DNA of 64,000 nt, from IMG/VR virus record IMGVR_UViG_3300026549_000002; one strand, 5' to 3'. The notes beneath the pieces were generated by a model. It was given only the letters and a program-made list of their open reading frames with translations, searched no databases and was not told where the DNA came from. Below, piece after piece: positions 8,916 through 23,504 of the stretch. Each line of letters starts with the position of its first letter. Positions within the stretch are counted from its first letter, which is position 1. The translations under genes and the position numbers were made by a program. Source of the stretch: an uncultured virus (IMG/VR IMGVR_UViG_3300026549_000002) (Duplodnaviria; Heunggongvirae; Uroviricota; Caudoviricetes).

Positions 8916-9465
8916 AATTGTTGCATTATTTGGGGCGGCGGGCTCCGGTAAGGATACTCTTCAGAATCTAGTTACAGAATGTCTTGATGTTAATCCTCTT
9001 GTAAGTACCACAACGCGGCCGCCGCGAGGGGATGAAATAGAAGGAGATGCATATCATTTTGTAACAGAAGAGGATTTCATGAATGAACCGATGCTAGAAT
9101 ACACAACTTTTCGTGGATGGTGGTATGGTACACCTTATTCTGCTATTGATAAGCATAAACTTAATATAGGCGTATTTAACATATCAGGCATCAAACAAAT
9201 GATGCAATATAATAAAATCATTAAAATTTTTCCAATCTATATTAAATGTGAAGATAGGGTTCGTCTTGAGCGTCAACTTAGTAGAGAAGAATATCCAGAT
9301 TGTGAAGAGATTTGTAGACGTTATCTTACAGATAAAAAAGACTTTAAAGAAGAGAATATCACCTTCGATTATCATTGGATAGATAACTCTGAAGATCTGG
9401 GTGACACACTTGAAAATCTTGTATCAACTATTACTGAATGGGACAAAACAATTGATGATAAATAA
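8908..9465 (+). CDS. gmk: guanylate kinase-like protein
   Basis: P-loop GAAGSGKDT; STTTRPPR; YHFVT; WWYGT. Confidence 0.85.
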   Translation: MIKIVALFGAAGSGKDTLQNLVTECLDVNPLVSTTTRPPRGDEIEGDAYHFVTEEDFMNEPMLEYTTFRGWWYGTPYSAIDKHKLNIGVFNISGIKQMMQYNKIIKIFPIYIKCEDRVRLERQLSREEYPDCEEICRRYLTDKKDFKEENITFDYHWIDNSEDLGDTLENLVSTITEWDKTIDDK

Positions 9466-9542
9466 AGTAATTTTCATATATAATAGGTCTGGCATACTTT
9501 GCCAGACCTCCTTAAAATATTTAAATAATTAGGAGAGTATAT

Positions 9543-10465: not shown

Positions 10466-11415
10466 TAATTATTAGGGCGACTTAATAGTAATATTAAGAA
10501 CATAGCTGCCTAAACGGGGAAACTCTTATTAAGACAATCCCGTGCTAAATTTGTATCATCATATATATAGAGGAGGCAACTCTATGTATACAGTATACCA
10601 ACATAAAAATAAAATTAATAATAAAGTATATATAGGCATTACAAGTCAAAACCCTCAAATTCGATGGGGAAGTCAAGGATGTAATTATAAATCTAGTCCT
10701 TATTTTTATAATGCTATTCAAAAATATGGTTGAGATAATTTTGAACATAATATTTTATATACTAATTTGACCAAAGAGCAAGCCTGTGAATTAGAACAAA
10801 AATTAATTCAAGACTATAATGCCATGGATAGAAATTTTGGTTATAATTCTACTTCTGGTGGAGAAGCTTTCACCATGAATAAAGAAACTAAACAAAAAAT
10901 ATCACAAGCATTAATGGGTAATCAGAATGGATTAGGTCATCCTTGTTCTGAAGAAAAGAAAAGAAAAATAAGTGAAGCTCAAAAAGGTAGACAATTTACT
11001 GAAGAGCATAAACAAAAATTATCTGAAGCCGCACAGAAGCGTCATGTACCTTGCTCAGAAGAAAAGAAAGAAATATTAAAACAAAAAGCCAAAAAGAAAC
11101 CTGTGTATTGTTTGGAACTTGATACTATATTTGAATCGGTTCAAGAATGTAGCAGACAATTGGGTATTCCAGCAACTAATATTTCAAAATTATGCGGTGG
11201 AAGAGGTAAAACATTAAAAGGTTATCACCTAAGTTATTATGATGATACAATAAATGCCTAACGACTATCCTTATAAAATGAGGAGTAGAATCAAGCGATT
11301 CGAAATGGTAGCCCCCTCTATTTAGAGGGTGAAGATATAGTCTAATCTTTATAGTGATATAAAGAAGTTCATAAGAGAACTGCATAAGATTAGCGACCTT
11401 ATGTGAATATAAATG
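10466..11415 (+). mobile_element. group I intron 1 in nrdD (950 nt)
   Basis: P1 with U-G pair (exon CCU / GGG 10475-77), P10 AUUA/UAAU, AAACGGG..AAUCCCGU, AACGACU, GAAGAUAUAGUCUA, terminal G at 11415; removal restores the reading frame. Confidence 0.9.
10584..11261 (+). pseudogene. GIY-YIG homing endonuclease with NUMOD-type DNA-binding repeats, interrupted by in-frame TGA at 10731-10733
   Basis: VYQH..KVYIGIT; YG*DNFEH where YGW is expected; downstream ORF is in the same frame; HKQKLSE repeats and C-terminal HTH-like FESVQECSRQLG. Confidence 0.8.
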
Positions 11416-12247
11416 TAATACATTACAAAGCAGAAGTGGTAACCAACTTCCTTTCACAAGTATTAACTATGGTACTTGTACACTTCCAGAAGGTAGAATG
11501 GTAACTGAAGCACTGCTTACAGTATCTATGGAAGGTGTTGGTAAACTTGGTCTTACCCCTATTTTCCCTTGTGGTATATTCCAGTATTGGAAAGGTGTAA
11601 ATGATAAGCCAGGTACATCGAATTATGACCTGTTCAAAATGGCACTCAAGAGCACATCTATGAGATTATATCCAAACTATGCTAATGTAGATTGGTCAGG
11701 CAACGCTGGGTATGATCCTAAGGACCCGAAAACATACTTCTCAACAATGGGATGCAGAACTGCCAATGGATGGGATATTAATGGATTCGGTCAACTGAAG
11801 GATGGTAGAGGAAATATCTGCCCAGTTACTATAATTATGCCAACCATTGCTATGGAAGCAAAAGAAGAAGTAGAGAAGAGCGATGGTGCTGACTTAATTG
11901 ATGTATTCATGGAAAAGCTAGATAATGCAATTCATGATGCTAAAGATATTCTGATTGAAAGATTTGACTGGATTTGTAGTCAAGATGCAACAAGTGCTAA
12001 ATTTATGTGGATGAATGGTACTATGGAGGGATATGATCCTGAAGAAGGACCAAGGTCCGCACTTAAGCATGGTACACTTGCTCTTGGTCAATTAGGATTA
12101 GCAGAAACTCTTCAGATTCTCATAGGCTGCGATCACACAGACGAGAGAGGAATGGAACTCGCGAAGCGAATAGAACAACTGTTTAAAGACCGCTGTGCCC
12201 AGTTCAAGGAAGAGGAAAGACTTAACTTTGGTGTATACTACACGCCT
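11416..12247 (+). CDS. nrdD: nrdD exon 2
   Basis: LQSRSGNQLPFTSINYG; STMGCRT; GRGNICPVT; ends GVYYTP. Confidence 0.9.
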
Positions 12248-13220
12248 AAGAATTATTGGGCGGCATAAGAGTAATCTTATGTACAAATTCTTTACTAAAC
12301 GGGCAATCGTAATAAGATGGTAAGAAAGCCTAAACCTTATAATAAGGCATGGTAATCCCGTAGGATAAAACCAAAAAATATTGGACAGAAGTGTGTATTT
12401 GTGTTCAGTAGATTTTCAATATATATAACAGAAAATTTAGAAAAGGAGTACACACAAATGGCTAGAAGAAAATTATCAGATAAATTAATAGATAGAGCAG
12501 ACATACCTGAAGAATTATTCTTAATTGAAGGTAGTGAAACAGATTATATTACAAAAAGTGGTAAAATTTATAAAGACTATGGTGATAATAAATTTTTCCC
12601 TAAACAAAATTTCCAAAATTGGGGATATTGGTATTGTAATATAACTTATCCAGAAGGGCAAAAACAAAAAAGAGTTCATAGATTATTAGCTCAAACTTTT
12701 ATTCCTAATCCAAACAATTATCCAATTGTACTTCATATAGATAGCGATAAAAGTAATATGAGTTTAGATAATTTAAAATGGGGAACCATTAAAGAAAATA
12801 CATTACAAGCCTATGAAGAAGGTATGGCTCATAATGATAAAAGTTGGGAAGACTCTCAATCAATCCATGTTTGTCAATTTGATTTAGATGGCAACTTATT
12901 AAATAAATATGGTTCTGTTAGTGAAGCATCAAGACAAACAGGATTAACAAAAACTGCTATTTTAAATCAATGCAATCATGGTATTAAAACTAAACCAAGA
13001 TGTGGATATTGGTTTAGATATTTATCTGAATATGAAAAAGATGGTTTTGTTCTCTAACGACTATCGAAAGTATAATATAAGAGAAATACTTATATGAATA
13101 AACGAGTAGAGTAGCTTTTTTAAAGCGAAATGTAAAGCTCCTATTATTTGGTCAAAGAATAATAGGATGAAGATATAGTCTAGTCCCCTAATAAATATCG
13201 GGAAACCGAGGGTAGAATCG
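12248..13220 (+). mobile_element. group I intron 2 in nrdD (973 nt)
   Basis: P1 CGCCU/GGGCG with U-G pair; AAACGGG, AAUCCCGU, AACGACUA, GAAGAUAUAGUCUA; terminal G at 13220; splicing gives YYTP|AENLC. Confidence 0.9.
12458..13057 (+). CDS. intron-encoded HNH homing endonuclease (I-HmuI-like architecture)
   Basis: RVHRLLAQTFIPNP..VLHIDSDKSN..NLKW..EN; C-terminal YGSVSEASRQTG; AAGGAG RBS. Confidence 0.85.
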   Translation: MARRKLSDKLIDRADIPEELFLIEGSETDYITKSGKIYKDYGDNKFFPKQNFQNWGYWYCNITYPEGQKQKRVHRLLAQTFIPNPNNYPIVLHIDSDKSNMSLDNLKWGTIKENTLQAYEEGMAHNDKSWEDSQSIHVCQFDLDGNLLNKYGSVSEASRQTGLTKTAILNQCNHGIKTKPRCGYWFRYLSEYEKDGFVL

Positions 13221-13712
13221 GCAGAAAATCTATGTTATACCGCGATGAAGAAGTTTAAGGCTAAGTATGGGGAGATTCCAAATGTCAGTGATAGAGAATA
13301 TTTCACAAATTCGATGCATGTACCGGTCTGGAAAGAAATATCTCCGTTTGACAAAATTGATATTGAATCACAGCTTACTGGCTACAGTAGTGCTGGTTGT
13401 ATTACTTATGTGGAACTCGACGGAGCAGTGCAGCATAACTTAGATGCTTTAGAAACATTAGTAAATTATGCTATGGATAAGGATATTCCTTATTTTGCTA
13501 TTAATATTCCTAATGACCAGTGCTTAGATTGCGGCTGGACTGGAGAAATTAATGAAACATGCCCTAAGTGTGGTGGTAACCATATTCAAAGGCTTAGAAG
13601 AGTTACAGGCTATTTAACTGGTAACTATACAACTGCGTTTAATCTGGGCAAACAAGCTGAAGTTAAGGATAGATATAAGCATAGCAACAGACTAGTAAAT
13701 TGGAGGCATTAA
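13221..13712 (+). CDS. nrdD: nrdD exon 3 (spliced product about 748 aa)
   Basis: YFTNSMH; CxxC..CPKCG zinc site; glycyl-radical motif RRVTGYL. Confidence 0.9.
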   Translation, partial: AENLCYTAMKKFKAKYGEIPNVSDREYFTNSMHVPVWKEISPFDKIDIESQLTGYSSAGCITYVELDGAVQHNLDALETLVNYAMDKDIPYFAINIPNDQCLDCGWTGEINETCPKCGGNHIQRLRRVTGYLTGNYTTAFNLGKQAEVKDRYKHSNRLVNWRH

Positions 13713-14218
13713 TGTTAATACATATAAATGGTATTAATGGTAATGATATGGTTAATGGAGAGGGAGTTTCAGTCTCCCTCTTCATGCAAGGATGCCCCCA
13801 TCATTGTCCTGGGTGCTTTAATCCAGAATCTTGGGATTTTGACGGTGGATATACAATAGAGCAGGATGAATTGTTTAAGGATATTTTAAATAAAATGACT
13901 GCTAATGATTTGCAGAGGAATTTTAGTTTTCTTGGCGGCGAGCCTTTGGCGCCTCAGAACCTGGCTCTAACGCAGCATATCATTCACTATTTAAGAGATA
14001 ATTTAGACTATATACCTAAAATTTATATTTGGTCTGGTTATACTTTGCAGGAATTGGTAGAAAGAAGTAAAACAGAACTAGCTATTAAAGATATATTGAT
14101 TTATACATATTGTTTAATAGATGGCCCTTATAAATATGAAGAAAGAGATTTGACTTTAGAGTTAAGAGGAAGTGCAAATCAAAATATTATCTACCACCCT
14201 GGTGATTACATAAATTGA
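13712..14218 (+). CDS. nrdG: anaerobic RNR activase (radical SAM)
   Basis: GCPHHCPGC (CxxxCxxC); GGEP; LRGSANQ; ATG overlaps nrdD stop. Confidence 0.92.
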   Translation: MLIHINGINGNDMVNGEGVSVSLFMQGCPHHCPGCFNPESWDFDGGYTIEQDELFKDILNKMTANDLQRNFSFLGGEPLAPQNLALTQHIIHYLRDNLDYIPKIYIWSGYTLQELVERSKTELAIKDILIYTYCLIDGPYKYEERDLTLELRGSANQNIIYHPGDYIN

Positions 14219-14243
14219 CAAGATTGTAAAATTTTGATATAAT
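14215..14243 (+). promoter_or_regulatory. SigA-type promoter
   Basis: TTGACA-17 bp-TATAAT with extended TG. Confidence 0.85.
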
Positions 14244-14279
14244 ATATAGAGAATGAGAGATAAAAGGAGAGGATGTAAT

Positions 14280-14654
14280 ATGGCTGAACTAACTATGGGG
14301 AATCTTCACGATATGAATAAGCAACTGAGTGAGCAGATGCCAGTGAAGAGTATTCCTGAGATATTAGCTCTATATCCTAAATTAGAAAATTGGTTTGAGT
14401 ATAGTATAGATAGATATGCTATGCTACTTTGTCATGAGCAAAGAGACTTTACTATTTTTAATAAAGTGTCTGATATGGCTGATATGGCAAAAGAAGCAAC
14501 AAAAGCATTGTTTGAATGTATAGAGAACCGCGGCGGCCTTGTCTCAATGGATCCTGCCGACGGCGATGCATGGGAGATTTGGATTAGAGATGAAGATAAT
14601 GCTGACCATTGCTATTATCTGTTTAATTATGACAATGCAGTAATAGAGGTGTAA
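14280..14654 (+). CDS. hypothetical protein
   Basis: AAGGAGAGG RBS before ATG 14280. Confidence 0.7.
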   Translation: MAELTMGNLHDMNKQLSEQMPVKSIPEILALYPKLENWFEYSIDRYAMLLCHEQRDFTIFNKVSDMADMAKEATKALFECIENRGGLVSMDPADGDAWEIWIRDEDNADHCYYLFNYDNAVIEV

Positions 14655-14655
14655 G

Positions 14656-14904
14656 ATGAGAAAAAAGACCATAGAGATATTTATGAGTCCCGTCAAATTA
14701 TCTTCTTCTGTTTTTATTAGAGATGAGCAAGGATTATTAACTTCTTATAAAGTTGACAATAAAAAACTTGTTGATTTTGTTAGTAAACAAGAAAATGTAG
14801 AAGAAGTAACAATTAGCGGAGCTAAAATATATACAAGTAAATTTAAAGACCAAATGCAAAAACATATGAATAAGAATTGCAAATTCACATTAAGGAGTAA
14901 ATAA
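14656..14904 (+). CDS. hypothetical protein (82 aa)
   Basis: GAGGTG RBS; operon spacing. Confidence 0.65.
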   Translation: MRKKTIEIFMSPVKLSSSVFIRDEQGLLTSYKVDNKKLVDFVSKQENVEEVTISGAKIYTSKFKDQMQKHMNKNCKFTLRSK

Positions 14905-15143
14905 TGGCACATCTAATTAAAACAACAGAAGTATATAGAGTAGAGACTGAGGACGAAGCTAAAAAATTTATTGAAGAACAAAAACAGAATGATTCCTATG
15001 AGATGATAAAATATTCTTCAGAATATAAAATCAAAAAGGCAAAAGGTGAAATAGAAGATGAATGGTTTAGAGTAACCCTTGTGAAGAGTTTCGATGACGA
15101 AAAAAGTCCTATAGGAAGTGTGAAGATTAGCTATGAAGATTAA
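14904..15143 (+). CDS. hypothetical protein (79 aa)
   Basis: AAGGAG RBS; translational coupling. Confidence 0.7.
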   Translation: MAHLIKTTEVYRVETEDEAKKFIEEQKQNDSYEMIKYSSEYKIKKAKGEIEDEWFRVTLVKSFDDEKSPIGSVKISYED

Positions 15144-15561
15144 TATTAAGAAATTAGAACCAGATGCAATAATACCTACAAAGGGAAGTGATGCTGCGGC
15201 AGGTGTGGACCTTTACGCACGTAGTCCCTTGGTAATTCATCCTGGGTGTAATGGAGTTGTTGACACTGGACTTGCTGTGGAAATACCAGATGGTTATTTT
15301 GGCGCAGTGTTTGCAAGATCTGGTATGGCTGTCCGCAAAGGACTCCGCCCGGCTAATTGTGTGGGTGTTATAGATTCAGATTATAGAGGACCGATTAAAG
15401 TAGTTTTACACAATGATACTGATATAATTAGACCTGTTCAAGAAGGTGATAGAATTGCACAACTTGTTATTTTACCTTACGAGAAAATTGAGTTTAGTGA
15501 GGTGGAAAAGCTTACTGATACAGAGCGCGCTGACGGCGGCTTTGGTAGTACTGGTAACTAA
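15133..15561 (+). CDS. dut: trimeric dUTPase
   Basis: AAGVDL, ARSG, GVIDSDYRG, RIAQL, RADGGFGSTG. Confidence 0.95.
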   Translation: MKINIKKLEPDAIIPTKGSDAAAGVDLYARSPLVIHPGCNGVVDTGLAVEIPDGYFGAVFARSGMAVRKGLRPANCVGVIDSDYRGPIKVVLHNDTDIIRPVQEGDRIAQLVILPYEKIEFSEVEKLTDTERADGGFGSTGN

Positions 15562-15595
15562 AATAATGCGGAGGCACTAGCCTCCGCTTTTTATT
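15560..15595. terminator. bidirectional terminator between convergent arms
   Basis: GCGGAGGC-acta-GCCTCCGC flanked by A and T tracts. Confidence 0.8.
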
Positions 15596-16106
15596 CCCAA
15601 TTATATTCTCTTTCTTCTTTTGCGGTATGCTCTAAATAATAACTATAACCAATTAAAATAGCATCTGCTTTATCATCATTGTTTTTTATATCATTAGTAA
15701 ATTTAGGAAATAACTCTTTTGCTTTTTCTATATCCTTTGGTTTAAGCATAGCTCTAGTTATACCCCTACCCGTTTTTATACCAACCATTTTACGCCAATG
15801 GCTAGCAGTACACAGTTGCATTTCTAGTTTATATTGATCTAACATAATAGTTATATCACCATGTGCTATTGTTAATTTTCTATATACATCAATATTATTC
15901 TTAACAAAAGCTGGCTCTGGTTCTTCCGCTATAACAGCTTGTGGTTTATATTGTATTACAAGTTCTTCTATTCTATTTGTTATTTTACGTATACGCTTCC
16001 ACACATTCCCCGTGGGTGCAATACATTCTACTAGAACTAGATGATTATCTTCAAGTATTGCAACACCCGTTGATGTAGTAGATATATCTAAAGACATAAT
16101 TGTCAT
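15591..16106 (-). CDS. RuvC-like Holliday junction resolvase
   Basis: SLDISTTSTG, VIAEE, DDKADAILIG (RNase H-fold acidic residues). Confidence 0.8.
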   Translation of the reverse strand: MTIMSLDISTTSTGVAILEDNHLVLVECIAPTGNVWKRIRKITNRIEELVIQYKPQAVIAEEPEPAFVKNNIDVYRKLTIAHGDITIMLDQYKLEMQLCTASHWRKMVGIKTGRGITRAMLKPKDIEKAKELFPKFTNDIKNNDDKADAILIGYSYYLEHTAKEEREYNWE

Positions 16107-16140
16107 TTTTATTTTCTCCTTATTAATCCTATCTAACTAC

Positions 16141-16169
16141 AGTGTAACAAAATTTTTTTCAAGAGTCAA
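16141..16169 (-). promoter_or_regulatory. SigA-type promoter for resolvase
   Basis: TTGACT-17 bp-TACACT with extended TG. Confidence 0.7.
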
Positions 16170-16190
16170 GGACAATTTGGGTTAATCAAT

Positions 16191-16230
16191 AAAAAAAAAT
16201 GGGATTGTCTAAAAAATAAGACAATCCCAT
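16191..16230 (-). terminator. rho-independent terminator of accessory cassette
   Basis: ATGGGATTGTCT/AGACAATCCCAT stem with A9 tract (U tract on - strand). Confidence 0.8.
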
Positions 16231-16234
16231 ATAA

Positions 16235-16369
16235 TCATTTGGTTATAACAGGTTTATAATGTTCTCGAACTATATATAATATTGCTAATTTTTCACATAC
16301 TGAGAAATTAGTATCATCACATTGTTCTAATTCTGTTATTGTTTCTTCTATTGTTTCCAAATCTAGCAT
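16235..16369 (-). CDS. small protein (44 aa, MLDLETIEETITELEQCDDTNFSVCEKLAILYIVREHYKPVITK), not in ORF track
   Basis: Start overlaps upstream stop; AAGGAG upstream; ends just before the terminator. Confidence 0.6.
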   Translation of the reverse strand: MLDLETIEETITELEQCDDTNFSVCEKLAILYIVREHYKPVITK

Positions 16370-16923
16370 AATACTTTAGCAATCTCCTTTGTATAATATT
16401 CAGTTTTTTTAGATTGCTCTACCATAATGGTCGGTATATCAAAATTGATAGCCGTTAATTGTAATAATTCTTTTTGTGCTTCAGCAATCTCGTTATCTAC
16501 ATCACAAATAAACATTTTAATAAAACAAGCATCAGCAACTTCATTAGTTTCCATTAATGTTTTATACATTTTAGTATATAAAGTTTTTGTATCTTGTTCC
16601 CATTTAATCCAATCTTCTAATCCAGACTTAATACTTTCTCTAATTGTATTACTTCCTACATCTTCTCTTGTATATTGATACCAACTACTCGGAATTATTT
16701 CTGGTACAATAATTTTAGATTCTTTAATTAATTTATTGTGATGACGCATATAATAATTACATAAACACCTATAATTATATGTTTCTTCATAAAAATGATA
16801 TTCATGACAGGTTTTATATCCATCCAAATTTAAAAAATAATAATAATTAGCATAGTGTTCATGAATCATCATGCCTATAACCATATGCTGGGCAATTTCA
16901 CTATATATTTCCTCAATAGTCAT
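16363..16923 (-). CDS. ferritin-like four-helix-bundle protein
   Basis: GMMIHE, HEYHFYEE, WIKWEQDT, DVDNEI pattern of ferritin-like folds; start ATG 16923 after AGGTG. Confidence 0.55.
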   Translation of the reverse strand: MTIEEIYSEIAQHMVIGMMIHEHYANYYYFLNLDGYKTCHEYHFYEETYNYRCLCNYYMRHHNKLIKESKIIVPEIIPSSWYQYTREDVGSNTIRESIKSGLEDWIKWEQDTKTLYTKMYKTLMETNEVADACFIKMFICDVDNEIAEAQKELLQLTAINFDIPTIMVEQSKKTEYYTKEIAKVLC

Positions 16924-16930
16924 AACACAC

Positions 16931-17323
16931 CTAGCATAATTTTGTAACACATAAATTAGTATCACCAGTTGCTTCTGGCCCTGTATACATAACTTGAATT
17001 ACAACAGGTTCTTTACAACATACATTCTGTACTCTAACAAGAGTAGTGAAATATAAAGGAACTGTTGAATCTGCGGCGGCGGTGCTAACACTCTTTGCTT
17101 CTGGTACCACTACACCATTCCTATATAACTGGATCTGTGCATCTCCAGCCGCAGTAGCAGTTATATTTGCATTACAATATATCATATATACGCCAGGTTT
17201 ATTTAACTGTACTGTATTTGGAGTGAGTTGAATACTAGTGCATCCCTTTTCCACAGTTTTATTAATAAAATTTACATAAGTATTATTAGTTAAAGTTTGT
17301 GCTATACTATATACTTGAAGCAT
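16931..17323 (-). CDS. beta-sandwich protein (BclA-C/C1q-like, tentative)
   Basis: NTVQLNKPGVYMIYCNANI..IQLYRNGVVVP pattern. Confidence 0.5.
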   Translation of the reverse strand: MLQVYSIAQTLTNNTYVNFINKTVEKGCTSIQLTPNTVQLNKPGVYMIYCNANITATAAGDAQIQLYRNGVVVPEAKSVSTAAADSTVPLYFTTLVRVQNVCCKEPVVIQVMYTGPEATGDTNLCVTKLC

Positions 17324-17485
17324 AACTATTGTATCTCCCTTAATCTAAAATTTTTTAAGGGTATCCATTTTTAAGTAAAAAAAATATGTACACCCTTTTT
17401 TGTAAGATAATTCAAAAAAAGGCATACTATATATGCTCAAAAAATATTAAAGGCATACTAAATATGCTCGTTTTACAGCTAGAAA

Positions 17486-18112
17486 CTACATTCCGCAGTT
17501 ACATCCCCCACTGCAGAATGGACTCATACCCGCATTATATGTCCAACTATTTGGGTATCTTAAAACATTGCTAGTAGCATTAGCAAGCTGCAGTTCATTA
17601 ATCTGATTCTGCATATCTGCCATTCTATTACTATTAATAGCGTCTAAAATTTTCTGTGTTTGTGCTGTGGTATTAGCGTTAATACTTGCAGTGTTCAGAG
17701 CAGCATTGTAATTAACTGCATCAATATTTCTCTGAACTTCGCAGCAGCATGTTTGTTGTTGCTGAATAGCTGTAGCTAAAGCAGACTCAACATTACCAAA
17801 CTCTCTGATAGTAGCTGCATTACCATCTTTAATAGCGGTAATAGTATCAGCAGTATCTTTAGAGATAGCATTTAAAATATCTCTATTCTGGTCAAGAAGA
17901 TTGTTAAAATTAAAACCATTTTGAACAAAATCCTGAGTTGCATACTGTGGCTGATAACCAAATCCATTGCCCCAGCCAAATCCGTTAAATCCGCCGCCAG
18001 CAAGAATTAGTAATGCAAAAATCCACATGAAAGAGCCATCGCCCCACATACCATTATTTCCACTTAATAAAGCCACATCACTAGCACTTAACGTTCCATT
18101 TTCCATAGCCAT
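17486..18112 (-). CDS. hypothetical protein with TM/Gly-rich N-terminus, coiled coil and Cys-rich ends
   Basis: WIFALLILAGGGFNGFGWG; TCCCE; C-terminal CSGGCNCGM; GGGAGG RBS. Confidence 0.75.
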   Translation of the reverse strand: MAMENGTLSASDVALLSGNNGMWGDGSFMWIFALLILAGGGFNGFGWGNGFGYQPQYATQDFVQNGFNFNNLLDQNRDILNAISKDTADTITAIKDGNAATIREFGNVESALATAIQQQQTCCCEVQRNIDAVNYNAALNTASINANTTAQTQKILDAINSNRMADMQNQINELQLANATSNVLRYPNSWTYNAGMSPFCSGGCNCGM

Positions 18113-18196
18113 AAAACTATGCCTCCCTTATTATTTTATTTCCCGTTAGTTTATATATATAAAAGTATTATAATATATAATACTGATATATCTCTA

Positions 18197-18463
18197 TTAG
18201 TGTTGTAACATTTGTAGAATTTGTTGAGGATCTACACCTCTTTGTTGTGCCATTTCAAAAAATAAATCTTTTGGACTTTTTTGACTTGTTTGAATTAAAT
18301 TTAATATACTTTGTAATTGAGGATTGCTTTGTGCCATTGTTTGCATTAATTGCATTGGGTTGTTACTACGACTAACCATATTTATCATTTGTTGCAATCC
18401 GCCATTACTGTTATTATTTCTTGATAATTGTGACTGGTTTAGTTGCTGATATAGTTTTGTCAT
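18197..18463 (-). CDS. Gln/Met-rich hypothetical protein (88 aa)
   Basis: NPMQLMQ..FFEMAQQRGVDP; operon context. Confidence 0.7.
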   Translation of the reverse strand: MTKLYQQLNQSQLSRNNNSNGGLQQMINMVSRSNNPMQLMQTMAQSNPQLQSILNLIQTSQKSPKDLFFEMAQQRGVDPQQILQMLQH

Positions 18464-18842
18464 TTTGCATCAACCTTTCATCTATCATTTGAGCTATTTC
18501 ATCTTTGGTTACAAATTGTGAGAAATCTATATTATTAGTTTGCTGTTGTAAGCTATCGTTTAAATTTTTTTGTTCTCCAATCTCTGTTACCTCTGTGAAA
18601 TTAAAAACTCTTAAATTTGACATGCCTATGTTATCACATACCTTAATATAGAAAAATCCTTCATCTCGTTGATCTAACATAAGTAAGATTTCATTAGGCT
18701 GAATAGGATAATTCTTCGCACTATCTATGCCTTGCACCCATATAATATTTGTGGGAGGTTCATTATAATTTTTATTTCCATAGGGTTGCATAAACTGTGC
18801 TTGTGAATTATTTTGAGCCATCATTGGATTATATCTCATCAT
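18414..18842 (-). CDS. hypothetical protein (142 aa)
   Basis: IIWVQG..AKNYP..LMLD..FYIK..D..G pattern; first gene of cassette. Confidence 0.7.
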   Translation of the reverse strand: MMRYNPMMAQNNSQAQFMQPYGNKNYNEPPTNIIWVQGIDSAKNYPIQPNEILLMLDQRDEGFFYIKVCDNIGMSNLRVFNFTEVTEIGEQKNLNDSLQQQTNNIDFSQFVTKDEIAQMIDERLMQNDKTISATKPVTIIKK

Positions 18843-18970
18843 AATAATATCCTTTTCTTTACAATGCGCATGTAAAATTGTTTTAACTTTTTTTCGCTAC
18901 CATATATAATTTTAGCATTAAGATTGTTAATTAAAATTGTCCAAGGTGTGGGGCGGTACTAGGTAAGGAG

Positions 18971-19006
18971 AAAAAAATTTTGGGGTACCTAAGTATAGGT
19001 ACCCCA
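18971..19006 (-). terminator. terminator at end of tail operon
   Basis: TGGGGTACCTA-agta-TAGGTACCCCA hairpin with nearby A tract. Confidence 0.7.
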
Positions 19007-19018
19007 TCTATAACTAAT

Positions 19019-19162
19019 CTAGAAAGGCTCTCCTGTAATTTCTGTAAACTCTGCTTCAGTAATTCCGAGATGCTTACCAACAACGGCTCTTACTCTCTCA
19101 ATACTCCAGAGTCCTTTATCATAGAAACCTTTAATCTTTTCAAAATTTTTGCTATGATTCAT
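19019..19162 (-). CDS. XkdX-family small protein (47 aa), not in ORF track
   Basis: FEKIKGFYDKGLWS..V...V....ITEAEFTEITG; AAGGAGG RBS; typical position after fibre genes. Confidence 0.8.
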   Translation of the reverse strand: MNHSKNFEKIKGFYDKGLWSIERVRAVVGKHLGITEAEFTEITGEPF

Positions 19163-19176
19163 AACATTCCTCCTTG

Positions 19177-19578
19177 TTACAGTTCAATATCAGACATAAT
19201 AGCAATGTACTCAATATCAGATGTGTTCTTTGCTGTCTGTTCTTTCAGACCTGGCTTAGCAAGTTCTACAAGAACAACATCACATTTGCTTTCTGTTGAT
19301 TCGCCTGTCTCTTCATCTACGCTTGTATCATATACATAGTCAAAGATTTTTTCAAGCTTTGCAACTACGCTATATCCAGTTACAATACGCAGAGTTTCTG
19401 TTTCAGTTTCATTTTTAATTTCAATATGAGCGACATTTGCGGCGTCACTAACAACGTTCTCAATCTCGCCCAGTTGGATTCCGTCAGCTTTGATCAGAGC
19501 GCGGAATACATCACTGTGAACGCTGAATCCACTTGGAACAACGTCATATTTAAAGTTTCCGAAAACAATTTTATTCAT
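19177..19578 (-). CDS. putative tail-fibre assembly protein (XkdW-position)
   Basis: C-terminal DIEYIAIMSDIEL directly before XkdX-like gene; AAGGAG RBS. Confidence 0.6.
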   Translation of the reverse strand: MNKIVFGNFKYDVVPSGFSVHSDVFRALIKADGIQLGEIENVVSDAANVAHIEIKNETETETLRIVTGYSVVAKLEKIFDYVYDTSVDEETGESTESKCDVVLVELAKPGLKEQTAKNTSDIEYIAIMSDIEL

Positions 19579-19701
19579 GTTTAATTTCTCCTTTGCGGCG
19601 GCCTAGGTGACCGCCATCTTTGTATATCTAGATAAAGCGGGATGTTTTTAACGACCTCCCGCAATTACAAACTTTTTATATATAGGTTTAAAAACGTATT
19701 T

Positions 19702-19726
19702 ATCTGTTATTTCACTAAATAATAAT
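19702..19726 (+). repeat. putative recombination site A1 (ATCTGTTATTTCACTAAATAATAAT)
   Basis: Exact 25-bp copy at 20974-20998; core inverted relative to 20327-20349. Confidence 0.85.
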
Positions 19727-19975
19727 CTCAGTGATTCAATATTAATCGAAACAGAGAATTTAACCTTTTCAGGTGGAGCAGCGGTTGTAAATGGTAAAGA
19801 CGATTATATTCTTGTAAACGCAATTGTTATAAACAGGCCCACATCCGAGAATAATAGTTATGCAATAAGTTCCATCTATGGCAGAACTAACGGAACATAC
19901 CGTTTGCAAAATGTATATACAGAATTAAATTCGGGTGCGATTGTCAAACTTATATGGGTGCATAAGTTAACTTAA
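19715..19975 (+). other. silent, start-less alternative fibre C-terminal cassette 1 (86 codons, LNNNLSDSILIETENL...VKLIWVHKLT*)
   Basis: Open frame begins at site A1 in the LNN frame; no in-frame start codon between upstream TAA (19649) and the site; converges on stop of 20002-20871. Confidence 0.8.
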
Positions 19976-20001
19976 CTTCTAAAATCTATTATAAATAATA
20001 A

Positions 20002-20871
20002 TTATTTTCCAATGATTAAAGTTGGTATACTATAAGTTCCAGTAATAGATTCTGCATTAGCTGTACCATGATAAGTAACTACAGAGGTTGTTGCTGTGCA
20101 CCAACCAAATATACCATATGTATTAAAAGTGCATTGAGCTAATAATATAGAAGCAAATAATGAAGTGGGTAAATTTTCTGTAGCAGCTGCATTTTCTGCA
20201 TAGTGAGCATTAGACCATAAACCTCCAAAAGCAAACCATTTTGAAGCTGTGCCATGACATAGAATTAAACCATTATAAAATTTTTCCCAAGTCCATATAC
20301 CAGTTTTTCCTGTATCAATTATTAACTTATTATTTAATGTACTTAATTGCTGAGCGATAGTACTTGTCGCGTCCGGTAGATCCGAAGCACTAGCATAACC
20401 AACTACATGAGCAAAATAATCATTCAAAGCAGATTGAGAATATGTCTTATAGTCACTAGGACTTGCAACATCCTCAACACTACTTAAAAATACGTCTTTA
20501 AACTTGTTATCTACTCTTTTTCTAAACCTATTAAATTTTGTCCACATACTAGATGTAACCTCGGTTGCATTAGTAACGCGAACACTAGTATCTAATAGTT
20601 CAGTTGATGTTTCACTACTAGACGAATCAAAATTCTGTATACCACTTGAAACTGTGGTGTTACCAATATTACCACCTGATGCGGTAACCTTGGTGTTGAT
20701 CTGACTCTGTATTGGTGCGGCGGCGCTTGGTATATCGCCGAGCACAGTCTGGAGATCTTTAGTACTAGAGTCAGACATTTCTACATCTACGTTTGAAGCA
20801 TCAGCACCAATGGGTGTTTCTGTACCCCATATGCCGTCTTCAAACTGAGATACTGATTTAATTTTTGACAT
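20002..20871 (-). CDS. tail fibre / receptor-binding protein A (178-aa constant part + 111-aa variable tip)
   Basis: N-terminus paralogous to 21294-22238 up to QLSTLNN, then unrelated; tip GIWTWEKFYNGLILCHG resembles fibre C-terminal motifs. Confidence 0.7.
   Translation of the reverse strand: MSKIKSVSQFEDGIWGTETPIGADASNVDVEMSDSSTKDLQTVLGDIPSAAAPIQSQINTKVTASGGNIGNTTVSSGIQNFDSSSSETSTELLDTSVRVTNATEVTSSMWTKFNRFRKRVDNKFKDVFLSSVEDVASPSDYKTYSQSALNDYFAHVVGYASASDLPDATSTIAQQLSTLNNKLIIDTGKTGIWTWEKFYNGLILCHGTASKWFAFGGLWSNAHYAENAAATENLPTSLFASILLAQCTFNTYGIFGWCTATTSVVTYHGTANAESITGTYSIPTLIIGK
20327..20349 (-). repeat. putative recombination site B1 (CAATTAAGTACATTAAATAATAA)
   Basis: Exact 23-bp copy at 21706-21728; encodes QLSTLNN. 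Confidence 0.85.
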
Positions 20872-20973
20872 AATTTAATCTCTCCTTTTGTCTCGCGGCG
20901 GTCCCGCCGCAGGATATGTAAGCGGTGCCTGGTGAAAGACACCGCGGGACTGGTTTCATTAAAATTGGGTTTC

Positions 20974-20998
20974 ATCTGTTATTTCACTAAATAATAAT
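20974..20998 (+). repeat. putative recombination site A2
   Basis: Identical to A1. Confidence 0.85.
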
Positions 20999-21280
20999 GT
21001 CATAATGCTTCATGATTTAACTCGCGTACATTTTTTAGAAGGTACAAAAGTTAGTATGACTTGTCCCGCTTCTGGAGACGCTCAAGTTACATTTCATTAT
21101 GCCCAATCATATAGTTATGTTCGGCCTATAGTAACGCAAGTAAATGATGCTTCTCGTTGGCAATATATTATTTTGGCAGTTACTAATGACAGTTTAAATT
21201 ATTGTATAGTTCATGGACATAATCTTTTAAATCAACAAGTTACTTTTCAAATACAAATAATAGTATTAGGTTATTTATAA
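20987..21280 (+). other. silent alternative fibre C-terminal cassette 2 (97 codons, LNNNVIMLHDL...QIIVLGYL*)
   Basis: In frame with LNN at site A2; internal ATG 21005 lacks a Shine-Dalgarno; converges on stop of 21294-22238. Confidence 0.8.
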
Positions 21281-21293
21281 TAAATTGAATAAT

Positions 21294-22238
21294 TTAAAAT
21301 TGAACCGTTTTAAACCCAATTACTTGTGTAATATTTATATAATCACCATATGTAAAAGCCATTGTAATATTTGTTGAACCAGAAGAAGACATGACACCAA
21401 AACCATGTTGTCCTGTGCTATAACTGTGATTGCCATCTGTAACTTGATATGTACGAATAGTATTATTTTTAATAATACAGCTCTTAACTTTATAATATGT
21501 AGCCCCCGTTTGATTTGTAGAAACAGTTACAGCACTCATAAACAAACTAATTGTTTTTCCATTCGGATGCATTACCGACATTGAATTAAATTGTCTGTCA
21601 TTATCTTTATAGCATATAACAAACATTTCATAGTTTGCTGCTGAGTCAGATAAAGTTATAGGACTATTTATTGCCACATTATCGTCATCAAAGAGAATAA
21701 TAGCATTATTATTTAATGTACTTAATTGGTCTGCTACCGAACCAACGGTAGCTACATCCGCATCTGTTTTATATCCAATTACATCAGCAAAATAACTATT
21801 CAGCGCTGCTTGAGAATATGTTTTAGTATCACTAGGTGTAACCACATCCTCAACAGAACTAATTAAAAAGTTACTAAATTTATTTGAAACCCTTTTTCTA
21901 AACATATTAAATTTTGACCACATAGTAGTCTGGCTTTCACCTGCCGCAACCACTACGTCTGTGCCGTCAATATCCTCTGATGTGTCTGTCTCTGAAGCAG
22001 GATCAAGGACACTGACCACAGTATCTTTTATATCTCCGCCGCTGGCATTTACTTTACCAGTCAGTTGTGTTTTCATACTAGGATCGGAAACTGAAACATT
22101 ACCAAGTACTGTCTGCAAATCTTTAGTAGAAGTAGAATCACTTAAAGCTACATCTACATTACTTGCATCAGCACCAATAGGAGTTCCATTTGCCCAGCTT
22201 CCGTTATTATATTCATAAACTTCTTTAATTTTTGGCAT
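21294..22238 (-). CDS. tail fibre / receptor-binding protein B (174-aa constant part + 140-aa variable tip)
   Basis: Paralog of fibre A (TPIGADASNVDV, KDLQTVLG, MWSKFN.FRKRV, KTYSQ); tip ITLSDSAANY..ITQVIG. Confidence 0.7.
   Translation of the reverse strand: MPKIKEVYEYNNGSWANGTPIGADASNVDVALSDSTSTKDLQTVLGNVSVSDPSMKTQLTGKVNASGGDIKDTVVSVLDPASETDTSEDIDGTDVVVAAGESQTTMWSKFNMFRKRVSNKFSNFLISSVEDVVTPSDTKTYSQAALNSYFADVIGYKTDADVATVGSVADQLSTLNNNAIILFDDDNVAINSPITLSDSAANYEMFVICYKDNDRQFNSMSVMHPNGKTISLFMSAVTVSTNQTGATYYKVKSCIIKNNTIRTYQVTDGNHSYSTGQHGFGVMSSSGSTNITMAFTYGDYINITQVIGFKTVQF
21706..21728 (-). repeat. putative recombination site B2
   Basis: Identical to B1. Confidence 0.85.
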
Positions 22239-22250
22239 TTAATGGCCTCC

Positions 22251-23504
22251 TCATCTTAATTCTAAGTAACCGTTTTCGCCTGCATGGGCTTTAGCACCAG
22301 TCACATCAGTTGCATCATAGTTAGGTAATAATTTATCATCTGTAAATACATCAGTAGCGCTACTAATCTTACTAACATCCCAAAGACTTGAAACATAAAT
22401 ATGCTCTAAGCTAGAACAACCACTAAATAAATTATTAGCACTAACTGAAGTTGCATCAAATTTAAATTCCCAACTACGTAAATCTAGCGATACTAGACCA
22501 ATACAATCAGCAAACATACCTTCAACAGTAGTAGCTGCAATAGGCATTACTGTAGGTAAACTTAATGCGGTAAGTGCATTACAACCACTAAACATTTGAT
22601 ACATATCTGTGACTCTACTTGTGTTAAAACTTGTTAAATCAAAAGAAGTACAAGCACGGCAAGCATAAAACATTTGTCTCATTGTAGTCACTTTGCTAGT
22701 ATCAAAACTGGTTAAACTCAGTGATGTTAAGCTAGTACATAGGTTAAACATTAATGCCATTGATGTAGCATTACTAGTAATAAAATTACCTAATGTTAAT
22801 GTAGCTAAATCATAACATTCACTAAACATACCTGCAAATGTGGTTACATTACTTGTATCAAACATAGATACATCAAGAGAGGCTAAAGTCATACAAGAGT
22901 CAAACATGTATGACATATTTGTTACTGCGGCGGTGTTGAAATTTGTTAACACACAATTATATAATGCAGTACATCCACTAAACATATATGACATATCAGT
23001 TACTGCGGCGGTGTTGTGGGCCGTCATGATAACTGAACCCAGCTTTGCACAACCCCCAAACATATGTGCAAAACTAGTACATTTTGATGTATCTAATCTA
23101 TCTAAATTATTAATGGTAGCCAGGTTCTTACATCCATCAAACCAATATGCTATAGATATTGGTTGAATCTCACCCATAAAGTTTACAGTTGTAATGTTGG
23201 CAACACGACTAGTCCATGGAATGTCCGTAGGTGCGGCCGCCGCAACATTTTCAACTCCTTTATAATAAGTTTTCGAACCAACGACTTGACCATTATTATA
23301 TTTATTCTTTTCTAATCTAATAAAATTTAAACTTGTATCTGAAGTATCATAATAAGCATACGCTTCAGTATCTACATATGCATCATCACTTACCTTAAAA
23401 CAAGTAGTACCATCTGATTTGGTAGTGTAATCATTCAAAGAACCTTTATAATAGTGTCTATTTAAAAGTTCATTTACTTTTGTAATATCTGAACTTATAC
23501 TCAT
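22251..23504 (-). CDS. BspA-like / DUF285 leucine-rich-repeat protein
   Basis: About 8-9 repeats of ~26 aa, F(D/N)TSxVTxMxxMFxxCxxLxxL. Confidence 0.85.
   Translation of the reverse strand: MSISSDITKVNELLNRHYYKGSLNDYTTKSDGTTCFKVSDDAYVDTEAYAYYDTSDTSLNFIRLEKNKYNNGQVVGSKTYYKGVENVAAAAPTDIPWTSRVANITTVNFMGEIQPISIAYWFDGCKNLATINNLDRLDTSKCTSFAHMFGGCAKLGSVIMTAHNTAAVTDMSYMFSGCTALYNCVLTNFNTAAVTNMSYMFDSCMTLASLDVSMFDTSNVTTFAGMFSECYDLATLTLGNFITSNATSMALMFNLCTSLTSLSLTSFDTSKVTTMRQMFYACRACTSFDLTSFNTSRVTDMYQMFSGCNALTALSLPTVMPIAATTVEGMFADCIGLVSLDLRSWEFKFDATSVSANNLFSGCSSLEHIYVSSLWDVSKISSATDVFTDDKLLPNYDATDVTGAKAHAGENGYLELR

What the first reader, a model, noticed from the sequence alone, without database searches (positions are those of the whole stretch)
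19702..22238. Twin tail-fibre shufflon: two tandem invertible tip switches with silent cassettes and no recombinase in view
Seen in sequence: two paralogous fibre genes (21294-22238, 20002-20871, - strand) are similar up to the peptide QLSTLNN and unrelated afterwards. That peptide is encoded by an identical 23-bp DNA site in both (B1 20327-20349, B2 21706-21728). Beyond each gene's stop lies an opposite-strand open frame (19715-19975, 86 codons; 20987-21280, 97 codons) beginning at an identical 25-bp site (A1 19702-19726, A2 20974-20998). A and B sites share CA(T/C)TAAATAATAA in inverted orientation and in the same LNN reading frame. Cassette 1 has no start codon near its 5' end and is missed by the ORF track. 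Inference: inverting about 19.71-20.34 kb or 20.99-21.72 kb swaps each fibre tip (289 to about 264 aa; 314 to about 271 aa), giving four combinations. A1xB2 and B1xA2 crossovers could move tips between fibres. Established: this resembles Mu G-segment, P1 C-segment and R64 shufflon logic, but those carry an adjacent invertase, and none is recognisable in these 64 kb.
Basis: partly seen in the sequence, partly recalled or inferred. Interest (0 to 1): 0.92.

Follow-up and report, generated by a model that had tools for sequence, protein, structure and literature searches.

The report
Twin phage tail-fibre tip shufflon
A large rumen phage has two tail-fibre genes, each followed by a silent, upside-down spare tip between matching 10-base sites; this is a known kind of DNA-flipping host-range switch, but the enzyme that should flip it is missing from the stretch we can see.

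Summary
Two paralogous fibre genes (20002-20871, 21294-22238, minus strand) each break at the peptide QLSTLNN. Each is followed by a tail-to-tail open frame with no start codon or ribosome-binding site. That frame begins at an inverted copy of the same 10-bp core, TAAATAATAA, in the LNN reading frame.

Comparative evidence makes this a Rin-type tyrosine-recombinase shufflon for fibre tips:
- A 96-97% identical phage (G001) has different sequence in all four segments, with the breaks exactly at the sites.
- G001 carries eight such cassettes directly beside a Xer-like tyrosine recombinase.
- A distant phage lineage repeats the layout with a 33% identical recombinase.
- 107 related fibres carry tips of 53 families, and identical tips occur on both constant parts.
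- One relative's silent cassette is 95% identical to another phage's expressed tip.

Not shown:
- No flipped isomer of this phage's own cassettes was seen.
- The window holds no recombinase, and the syntenic recombinase and spare-cassette block are absent.

Switching here therefore needs an enzyme from the unseen half of the genome or from a co-infecting relative, or the switch is frozen.

The kind has been known since 2018. This scan has already reported the eight-cassette sibling on other DNA.

The parts
21294..22238 (-). Tail-fibre gene 2 (314 aa): constant part of 174 aa plus expressed tip 2 (140 aa, 21294-21716)
   Evidence: ORF. The split at QLSTLNN is shown. 116 relatives were found. 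Some relatives' tips match Pfam Gp53-like_C or Gp10_C.
21706..21715 (-). B2 core TAAATAATAA, inside the 23-bp repeat 21706-21728; encodes (L)NN at the neck-tip boundary of fibre 2
   Evidence: Identity to G001 resumes exactly here. Contigs of other runs join other sequence at 21706.
20987..21280 (+). Silent tip cassette 2 (97 codons starting LNN; 8 open codons upstream; no Shine-Dalgarno)
   Evidence: The model has pLDDT 83.7 and is a six-strand beta sandwich. Its best PDB match is the R1 pyocin tail-fibre foot. Its homologues are 88-107 aa free ORFs, not full fibres.
20988..20997 (+). A2 core TAAATAATAA, inside the 25-bp repeat 20974-20998, with a conserved non-coding left arm ATCTGTTATTTCAC
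   Evidence: The G001 match ends at 20997. Joints at 20997 appear in two other runs.
20002..20871 (-). Tail-fibre gene 1 (289 aa): constant part of 178 aa plus expressed tip 1 (111 aa, 20002-20337)
   Evidence: In the model a helix at 172-181 ends at the junction and a beta tip follows at 184-288. The top PDB matches are the R1 pyocin fibre and AP22 gp53.
20327..20336 (-). B1 core TAAATAATAA, inside the 23-bp repeat 20327-20349
   Evidence: G001 identity starts at 20324. In run X3 tip 1 is joined through this core to the fibre-2 constant part.
19992..20001 (+). Fifth core copy, between silent cassette 1 and the stop of tip 1; it bounds tip 1 as a 348-bp unit
   Evidence: In X2 and X3 the tip-1 unit starts at 19992 or 19995 with other sequence to its left. 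Whether this copy is functional was not tested.
19715..19975 (+). Silent tip cassette 1 (86 codons starting LNN; 21 open codons upstream; no start codon near its 5' end)
   Evidence: No homologue was found.
19716..19725 (+). A1 core TAAATAATAA, inside the 25-bp repeat 19702-19726
   Evidence: The G001 match ends at 19725. Contigs of three other runs leave the window sequence at 19726.

Best explanation
This is a tail-fibre tip shufflon of the Rin type, with two expression sites. Each fibre gene encodes a constant N-terminal part that ends in a helix (QLSTLNN), followed by a small beta-sandwich tip. The 10-bp core TAAATAATAA encodes the NN of that junction. An inverted copy of the core starts a promoterless spare tip that lies tail-to-tail behind the gene. 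A small Xer-like tyrosine recombinase exchanges strands inside the identical core. This inverts the 0.62-kb segment (19716-20336) or the 0.73-kb segment (20988-21715) and fuses the spare tip in frame. Because both loci use the same core, A1xB2 and A2xB1 inversions, or exchange with a co-infecting genome, can move tips between the two fibres. Shown here: the sites and frames; the cassettes behaving as units bounded by the cores; the same tips on both fibres; one cassette silent in one phage and expressed in another; and the recombinase linked to such loci in two lineages. Inferred: catalysis by that recombinase, crossover within the core, and an effect on host range. In this phage the recombinase is not in the 64 kb and is missing from its place in the relative, so it must come from the unseen half of the 132-kb genome or from a co-infecting relative.
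For: (1) Sites and frames are confirmed. (2) G001 is 96-97% identical in the flanks but unrelated in all four A-B segments, with breaks at 19725, 20324, 20997 and 21705. (3) In 14 kb of G001, 8 of 8 core copies start an in-frame cassette of 97-172 codons. Two are expressed and six are silent. A 331-aa tyrosine recombinase starts 95 nt from the first core. It matches PF00589 at 1e-40 and XerA NF040815 at 229 bits, above the cut-off, and it has no arm-binding domain. (4) The A and B cores match within 8 of 9 loci, although the core differs between lineages: TAAATAATAA in window x2, G001 x2 and L018; TAAATAGTAA in L019; TAAATGATGC in L027 and L028. L020 is the mismatch. (5) L027 and L028 belong to another lineage, with a recombinase 33% identical. 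They are 98.8% and 99.7% identical on the two sides of an unrelated pair of tip and inverted cassette, and the recombinase lies just beyond the A site. (6) Of 116 fibre relatives, 107 have the QLS[ST]L junction. Their tips fall into 53 clusters, and 15 of the 23 multi-member clusters hold both fibre-1-type and fibre-2-type constant parts. Tips are 100%, 100% and 99% identical across the two types in three pairs. (7) A contig of run X3 carries the window's tip 1 fused at the 23-bp B site to the fibre-2 constant part. (8) Silent cassettes are real tips. The L031 silent cassette is 94.9% identical over all 117 aa to the expressed tip of P0045. L019's is 73% identical to the tips of P0013 and P0062, and three more are 43-56% identical to expressed tips, aligned from the junction onward. 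That is 5 of 13 silent cassettes tested. (9) Silent cassette 2 and the expressed tip 1 both give the R1 pyocin fibre foot as their best PDB match.
Against: No isomer with a window segment flipped in place was seen. The one contig of run X1, which may be the source, is colinear, and contigs drop rare variants. Neither window cassette has an expressed homologue: there are no longer proteins and no hit among the 116 fibres. In 1.84 billion representatives, cassette 2 matches only 88-107 aa ORFs and Ig/DUF11 repeat proteins. The window has no recombinase. dUTPase and RuvC are 30 nt apart where G001 has the recombinase. The 15 listed of the 20 members of the recombinase's 90% cluster do not include the window's 132241-nt contig. 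Sharp mosaic boundaries alone cannot distinguish site-specific from homologous recombination. The Foldseek E-values for cassette 2 are borderline (1.7e-3).
Confidence: 0.62

Rival explanations
1. Frozen relic. The segments descend from an active shufflon, but this phage has lost the recombinase and the spare-cassette block. The two loci are now static, with one fixed tip each and two fossil spares that have not yet decayed.
For: There is no recombinase in the window and none at the syntenic site. The X1 contig runs straight through the locus. The window's contig is not among the 15 listed of the 20 members of the recombinase cluster. Other relatives show decay: L016 has two fibres and no spare cassette, L020 has mismatched cores, and L024 keeps only a 32-aa recombinase remnant.
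Against: All five cores, the 25-bp A arms and both spare frames (86 and 97 codons in 34% G+C DNA) are intact. Half of the 132-kb genome is unseen. L031 shares the window-type module at 89% identity and still has a spare cassette that is expressed elsewhere at 95% identity.
Confidence: 0.25
2. Mosaicism by homologous recombination only. Tips are replaced by ordinary recombination in the conserved flanks. The opposite-strand frames are leftovers of earlier replacements, and no site-specific inversion occurs.
For: Whole cassette pairs differ between near-identical phages, which inversion alone cannot produce. No flipped isomer was observed.
Against: This does not explain several observations. Every spare begins at an inverted in-frame core (8 of 8 in G001). 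A 12-14 bp non-coding left arm is conserved across loci whose fibres are 44-49% identical. The A and B cores co-vary. A Xer-like recombinase adjoins such loci in two lineages.
Confidence: 0.08
3. A Gin/Cin/Min-type switch run by a serine invertase encoded elsewhere.
For: The classical phage fibre switches (Mu G, P1 C, p15B Min) use serine invertases. This rests on passages of PMC6109161 and on recall.
Against: Resolvase PF00239 has no hit in the 89-kb G001 record or in the 54 window ORFs. No U-like assembly gene lies in the segments. A tyrosine recombinase adjoins the array instead.
Confidence: 0.03
4. The plus-strand frames are independent small genes, for example fibre chaperones.
For: Cassette 2 has an ATG at 21005, and gene callers record it and its relatives as 88-107 aa proteins.
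Against: There is no Shine-Dalgarno sequence, and cassette 1 has no start codon. Homologous spares in relatives are full C-termini of fibres, aligned from the junction. The fold resembles a fibre tip.
Confidence: 0.02

Closest known systems
Rin shufflon of Bifidobacterium breve/longum prophages (Mavrich et al. 2018, PMC6109161; passages read with 'find': abstract, introduction, results section 8, Fig. 5 legend, methods)
   Same: A constant N-terminal receptor-binding gene, several promoterless variable C-terminal cassettes, a short asymmetric repeat (11 bp there, 10 bp here) before each cassette and inside the gene, and an armless XerD-like tyrosine recombinase flanking the array (present in the sibling G001).
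   Different: Here there are two paralogous constant genes in tandem sharing one core. The cassettes are stored as tail-to-tail pairs. The host phage is about 132 kb with its own DnaE-type polymerase, not a small prophage. This genome has only four cassettes and no recombinase in view. Sequence relatedness of the G001 recombinase to Rin was not tested, because no Rin sequence was at hand.
Second inversion locus of bifidoprophages 689b-1 and Bb423phi2 (same paper, PMC6109161, passage read)
   Same: It is a single invertible segment holding a small gene and the 3' end of its neighbour, with a short 8-bp site and no flanking recombinase. The authors propose an invertase supplied in trans.
   Different: In that case the two prophages really differ by the inversion. 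Here no flipped pair was seen. Here there are two loci, and recombinase-bearing siblings are known.
Tail-fibre shufflon of BV01-like Phocaeicola phages (PMC13596623, preprint, passages read)
   Same: Directional 10-bp motifs separate non-homologous cassettes that overlap the distal end of a tail-fibre gene, with a recombinase flanking them.
   Different: That system has one fibre gene and three cassettes, and read data show all configurations. The motif and the host phylum are different.
Mu Gin/G, P1 Cin/C, p15B Min and the gin shufflon of phage FRphi (recalled; summarised in passages of PMC6109161 and PMC13418256)
   Same: Inversion swaps the C-terminal part of a tail fibre at a site inside the gene.
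   Different: Those systems use serine invertases and carry a paired assembly gene (U/U'). No serine recombinase and no U-like gene is present here.
R64 plasmid shufflon (Rci/sfx; recalled; cited as Komano 1999 in the reference list of PMC13418256)
   Same: A tyrosine recombinase acts on asymmetric sites with a conserved core plus one conserved arm, and several segments share one constant gene.
   Different: The target there is the pilV adhesin of a conjugative pilus. The site sequence is unrelated and there is a single expression site.

Membership tests
Rin-type (tyrosine-recombinase) phage receptor-binding-protein shufflon | Constant N-terminal fibre/RBP gene that ends at the crossover site | tested here: met
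   There are two such genes. Their constant parts are 55% identical to each other and 96-99% identical to relatives up to QLSTLNN.
Rin-type (tyrosine-recombinase) phage receptor-binding-protein shufflon | Promoterless variable C-terminal cassettes with mutually unrelated sequences | tested here: met
   The window has two silent and two expressed cassettes with no similarity between them. The silent ones lack a start codon or Shine-Dalgarno sequence.
Rin-type (tyrosine-recombinase) phage receptor-binding-protein shufflon | Short asymmetric repeat before every cassette and inside the constant gene, rare elsewhere | tested here: met
   The 13-mer occurs 4 of 4 times at the locus. Of 11 copies of the 10-mer in 64 kb, 5 are in the locus. 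In G001, 8 of 8 copies start cassettes.
Rin-type (tyrosine-recombinase) phage receptor-binding-protein shufflon | Armless Xer-like tyrosine recombinase flanking the array | tested here: not met
   It is absent from the window. It is present in the sibling G001 and in the L027/L028 lineage. The rest of this genome could not be searched.
Rin-type (tyrosine-recombinase) phage receptor-binding-protein shufflon | Inversion isomers observed at the sites | tested here: inconclusive
   The same cassette is silent in L031 and expressed in P0045 at 95% identity. Tip 1 sits on fibre 2 in X3 and in a non-coding context in X2. No in-place flip of a window segment was seen, and only contigs, not reads, were available.
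Gin/Cin/Min serine-invertase fibre switches | Serine (resolvase-family) invertase | tested here: not met
   PF00239 has 0 hits in G001 and none among the 54 window ORFs.
Gin/Cin/Min serine-invertase fibre switches | A variable fibre part paired with its own assembly gene (U/U') inside the segment | tested here: not met
   Each segment holds only two tail-to-tail tips, with 14-27 nt between them.
R64-type shufflon (Rci/sfx) | Rci recombinase and the 19-bp sfx site; pilV as target | tested here: not met
   The target is a phage fibre. The site sequence differs from sfx as recalled. Relatedness of the G001 recombinase to Rci was not tested.

The most novel reading that the evidence does not exclude
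The cores may act as docking sites shared across the phage population. In a mixed infection, a recombinase from one phage would exchange whole cassettes between genomes at paired inverted cores, a natural form of recombinase-mediated cassette exchange. That would maintain a common library of more than 50 tip families for two fibre genes. Phages without the recombinase, such as this one, would be clients that keep intact sites and spare tips and are re-tipped in trans. This would explain why near-identical genomes differ by entire cassette pairs, which inversion alone cannot produce.
Probability: 0.2. Interest if true: 0.8.

Novelty: new variant of a known kind. Interest (0 to 1): 0.52.

Why it matters
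Tail-fibre tips decide which bacteria a phage can infect. Tyrosine-recombinase tip shufflons have been described in only a few prophage groups since 2018. This case shows the same logic in a large rumen phage of about 132 kb that encodes its own replication genes. Two fibre genes draw on one pool of tips. The junction and core are conserved across lineages whose recombinases are only 33% identical. Public data hold at least 53 tip families for these fibres. The recombinase-less state of this genome raises a testable question: can such switches be driven in trans, or exchanged between co-infecting phages? The fixed in-frame junction (QLSTLNN) also marks a natural splice point for studying how tips are matched to hosts.

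Tried and rejected
- The window's own assembly is not held, so the other half of the genome could not be searched for a recombinase. The metagenome records behind L017, L019, L020 and L022 are not held either.
- blastn of 19400-22400 and tblastn of the constant part against 50,697 phage records gave no match.
- Silent cassettes 2 and 1, searched for longer proteins, gave none (the tool itself calls this weak evidence). Cassette 2 against 1.84 billion representatives gave 5 hits, none of them a fibre.
- phmmer of all silent cassettes against the 107 tips added nothing beyond BLAST.
- tblastn of all tips against the window found no further cassette remnants.
- A scan of genome contigs with the constant-part alignment found nothing.
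- Rfam found no family in 9400-22400.
- The terminator scan of 19400-22400 found none, and the promoter count was no higher than in shuffles.
- Laid contigs: in X2, X3 and X5 the stretches 19762-19888 and 21032-21666 have no cover. This is not evidence by itself; only the contigs that join across them are used.
- A diversity-generating retroelement was considered. No reverse-transcriptase family appeared among the 54 ORFs.
- The core copy at 15633 (+) lies inside RuvC codons (GYSYYLE), is followed by only 9 open codons, and is taken as chance.
- The scan's notes on this genome were empty.
Full report
**The window.** The 64 kb are phage DNA at about 34% G+C. One arm carries replication and nucleotide genes: RecJ-like exonuclease, Dda-like helicase, DnaE-type polymerase, a split NrdD with NrdG, and dUTPase. 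The other arm is a minus-strand structural and lysis block: a portal-like protein, a 2709-aa tape measure, large tail proteins, a holin, a GH25 endolysin and a CW_7-repeat endolysin. The protein collection records the fibre proteins on a contig of 132241 nt. [quoted passage not shown]

**Check of the observation.**
- The four sites are exactly as described (repeat families D3 and D8).
- CAYTAAATAATAA occurs four times without mismatch in 64 kb, all at the locus. With one mismatch there are 7 matches against a shuffle mean of 1.58, and 0 of 100 shuffles reach 7.
- Fibre 1 (289 aa) and fibre 2 (314 aa) are 55% identical up to QLSTLNN and unrelated after it.
- The plus-strand frames start at LNN and run 86 and 97 codons. 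Only 21 and 8 codons are open upstream.
- Cassette 1 has no start codon near its 5' end.
- Cassette 2 has an ATG seven codons in, with no purine-rich ribosome-binding run before it. Both fibre genes have AAGGAGAG or GAGGAGG.
- The minimal identical core is 10 bp, TAAATAATAA. A fifth copy lies at 19992-20001.

**The nearest relative.** The window's own assembly is not held. The nearest record is G001, 89 kb and estimated 68% complete.
- G001 matches 19400-22400 in three blocks at 96-97% identity: 19400-19725, 20324-20997 and 21705-22400 (confirmed). Identity is therefore lost in both A-B segments and returns exactly at the cores.
- G001 has the same two constant parts joined to two other tips, and two other silent cassettes.
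- In 14 kb of G001 the core occurs eight times. All eight copies begin an in-frame cassette of 97-172 codons. Two are expressed, two sit at the A positions, and four more lie in two tail-to-tail pairs further on.
- A 331-aa tyrosine recombinase starts 95 nt from the outermost core. It matches PF00589 at 1e-40 and has a SAM-like core-binding domain. It scores above the cut-off for the XerA model (229 vs 220 bits). Its best solved relatives are XerC-like, XerA and XerD proteins. By inspection it keeps the RxxSE and HxxRHT...GH...Y motifs (motif names recalled).
- No resolvase-family gene is present in G001.
- In the window the recombinase and the four extra cassettes are absent. dUTPase (15133-15561) and RuvC (15591-16106) are 30 nt apart, and RuvC is inverted relative to G001.
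- tblastn with the recombinase finds nothing in the window. tblastn with all known tips finds only the four cassettes.

**More distant relatives.** A scan of metagenome contigs with the constant-part alignment gave 8 loci, and IMG/VR gave one more besides G001.
- L018 (49% identical fibre) and L019 (44%) each have one fibre gene followed by an inverted, start-less cassette. L020 (45%) has the same layout.
- The cores of the two sites match within a locus but differ between lineages. L018 has TAAATAATAA at both sites, and L019 has TAAATAGTAA at both. L020 is the one mismatch.
- The non-coding left arm of the A sites, CT(G/A)TTATT(C/T)(C/T)AC, is conserved across these loci.
- L016 (73%) has two tandem fibres, no spare cassette, and junctions LNS and LQT.
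- L024 has neither a spare cassette nor a recombinase, only a 32-aa remnant of one behind the fibre gene.

**A second lineage with the recombinase.** Searching IMG/VR with the G001 recombinase gave L027 and L028 (33% identity).
- Their fibre is not significantly similar to the window's (E 0.03).
- The two records are 98.8% identical up to the peptide AVSTLND. They are then unrelated through the tip and an inverted cassette that starts LALNDA, and 99.7% identical afterwards.
- The sites are GTACATTAAATGATGC and GGCGCTAAATGATGC. The gene-side arm, GTACATTAAAT, is thus shared with the window.
- The recombinase gene begins a few hundred bases beyond the A site.
- Across the nine loci where both sites are known, eight have identical cores.

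**The tips across public data.**
- A protein search with fibre 1 gave 116 relatives. Of these, 107 contain the junction QLS[ST]L: 78 continue LNN, 20 LNS, 7 LND and 2 other. The 9 without the motif were left out of the tip analysis.
- The 107 tips form 53 clusters, 30 of them singletons. Fifteen of the 23 multi-member clusters contain both fibre-1-type and fibre-2-type constant parts.
- Three pairs have 100%, 100% and 99% identical tips on the two different constant parts.
- Some tips match Pfam tail-fibre ends: Gp53-like_C in P0005 and Gp10_C in P0060 and P0107.

**Are silent cassettes ever expressed?** Thirteen silent cassettes were compared with the 116 proteins: window 2, G001 6, L018, L019, L020 and L031 2.
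- Five have an expressed homologue aligned from the junction to the C-terminus:
  - L031's against P0045: 94.9% over all 117 residues, matching 175-291 of 291.
  - L019's against P0013 and P0062: 73% over 132 residues.
  - L020's and G001's cassette at 7048 against P0041: 43-48%.
  - G001's cassette at 5545 against P0089: 56%.
- A sixth, G001's A2 cassette, shares only its first 29-34 residues with expressed tips.
- The remaining seven have none. These are both window cassettes, the G001 A1 cassette, the G001 cassettes at 6248 and 7888, the L018 cassette, and the L031 cassette at 561.

**Laid contigs.** Only Logan contigs were available, so rare variants and true read junctions cannot be seen.
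- X1 may be the source sample and is not independent. It covers the stretch in one colinear contig.
- X3 has a 13.9-kb contig that follows the window to 19726. It then has 704 other letters, then 20323-21000, then 645 other letters, then the window's tip 1 (19995-20326, same strand). Tip 1 is joined through the 23-bp B site to 21706-22800. The window's fibre-1 tip therefore sits on fibre 2 there. The protein P0002, from a 13906-nt contig, shows the same arrangement.
- X5 has 287 and 754 other letters between the site pairs.
- In X2 the contigs break at the sites. One 849-nt contig carries the tip-1 unit (19992-20335, 8 differences) between flanks that are not fibre sequence. On the LNN side a stop codon replaces the L codon. 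On the other side the flank resembles the left arm of a G001 spare-cassette site (compare).
- No contig shows a window segment flipped in place.

**Structure.**
- The fibre-1 model is poor in the constant part, as expected for a monomer model of a fibre (mean pLDDT 59.8). It has a helix at 172-181 that ends at the junction, and a confident all-beta tip at 184-288.
- Silent cassette 2, modelled with its three small homologues, gives a six-strand beta sandwich with pLDDT 83.7.
- Both have the foot domain of the R1 pyocin tail fibre as their best PDB match. For cassette 2: 6cl5_A at E 1.7e-3 with TM 0.58. For fibre 1: 6cxb at 2e-4 and phage AP22 gp53 at 1.1e-3. The E-values for cassette 2 are borderline.

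**Interpretation.** The anatomy matches the Rin shufflon described in Bifidobacterium prophages (PMC6109161, passages read). That system has a constant gene, promoterless variable cassettes, an 11-bp asymmetric site before each, and a flanking XerD-like recombinase without an arm-binding domain. The same paper describes a simpler inverted locus with an 8-bp site and no adjacent recombinase, for which an enzyme acting in trans was proposed. This parallels the present genome. Further phage fibre shufflons are in print:
- BV01-like phages (PMC13596623, passages read).
- Phage FRphi, which uses gin (PMC13418256, passages read).
- Rin-like loci in Eggerthella prophages (PMC8778435, search listing only).

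The kind is therefore known. The differences here are:
- two tandem acceptor genes sharing one core;
- storage of cassettes as tail-to-tail pairs;
- a large host phage that encodes its own replication genes;
- absence of the recombinase and spare-cassette block from this genome.

The replacement of whole cassette pairs between 96-99% identical genomes cannot come from inversion alone. It could arise by homologous recombination in the flanks, or by recombinase-mediated exchange between co-infecting genomes. The data do not distinguish between these.

**What remains open.** Whether this phage switches is not known. Against it:
- no recombinase in view;
- a colinear source contig;
- spare tips never seen expressed;
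- among the 15 listed of the 20 members of the recombinase's 90% cluster, contigs of 132066, 89126 and 79720 nt appear, but not the window's 132241 nt.

For it:
- all cores, arms and spare frames are intact;
- L031 shares the window-type neighbouring module at 89% identity and holds a spare tip that is expressed in another phage.

**Earlier notes of this scan.** Two reports on another genome sharing 74 of 142 sequence words describe a two-acceptor, eight-tip shufflon with its own recombinase and RuvC as a passenger. This agrees with what I found independently in G001 before that look-up. Several other Rin-type shufflons and one orphan inversion cassette have also been reported by the scan.

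Noticed in passing
window 9543-13712: The anaerobic ribonucleotide reductase gene nrdD is in three pieces (9543-10475, 11498-12268, 13245-13712). They are separated by insertions that carry a NUMOD3-type and an HNH homing endonuclease (10767-11261, 12401-13057). G001 has one uninterrupted 748-aa gene. Rfam found no group I or II intron at gathering score, so the type of insertion is undetermined.
   Followed up: partly
window 15591-16186: The RuvC-like resolvase gene and its upstream region are inverted relative to G001 (83% identity) and relative to L019. In G001, RuvC lies between two inverted spare-cassette cores at L006 6248(-) and 7048(+). The inversion may therefore be a footprint of shufflon activity in an ancestor.
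   Followed up: partly
window 19992-20001: A fifth copy of the core lies just past the stop of tip 1, in the A orientation. Tip 1 travels in other samples as a unit that starts here. Recombination of this copy with B1 would fuse the constant part to a 14-codon stub.
   Followed up: partly
window 19585-19700 and 20880-20975 (minus strand): Each A site is followed, before the next gene's ribosome-binding site, by two G+C-rich hairpins (-27 and -29 kcal/mol, z -1.9 and -2.5) with no U tract. They are conserved in G001. Their function is unknown.
   Followed up: partly
window 22251-23504: A 417-aa protein made of DUF285 repeats (E 2e-44) lies directly upstream of fibre 2 and is conserved in G001 and L016. 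It is probably another adhesin of the tail tip.
   Followed up: no
L031 (5.1-kb contig; tool-given title: MAG of an uncultured Erysipelotrichaceae bacterium): This contig is colinear with window 16107-19726 at 89% identity and has its own A1/B1 pair. It also has a further spare cassette with a TAAATAGTAA core at position 561(-), where the window has RuvC. The binning gives only a weak hint of the host.
   Followed up: partly
L024 7495-7590 (= G002): A 32-aa remnant of the recombinase C-terminus (66% identity, E 2e-10; 36-aa open frame) lies behind a fibre gene that has no spare cassette. This looks like a decayed system.
   Followed up: no
L029 (Clostridium phage phiCp-D) and L030 (Terrisporobacter phage TPELB_ph1): The nearest homologues of the recombinase in cultured phages (33-35% identity) are annotated as integrase. 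They sit between the last tail gene and the holin. TPELB_ph1 has a second, larger integrase by its lysogeny genes. No inverted cassette is annotated there.
   Followed up: no
window 16931-17323: A 130-aa ORF with weak similarity to the BclA C-terminal (C1q-like) domain (E 1e-7, below the Pfam cut-off) lies in the block that replaces G001's recombinase and spare cassettes. It has no core site and is not related to any tip.
   Followed up: partly
window 38085-46214: The tape measure protein is 2709 aa, which implies a very long tail.
   Followed up: no
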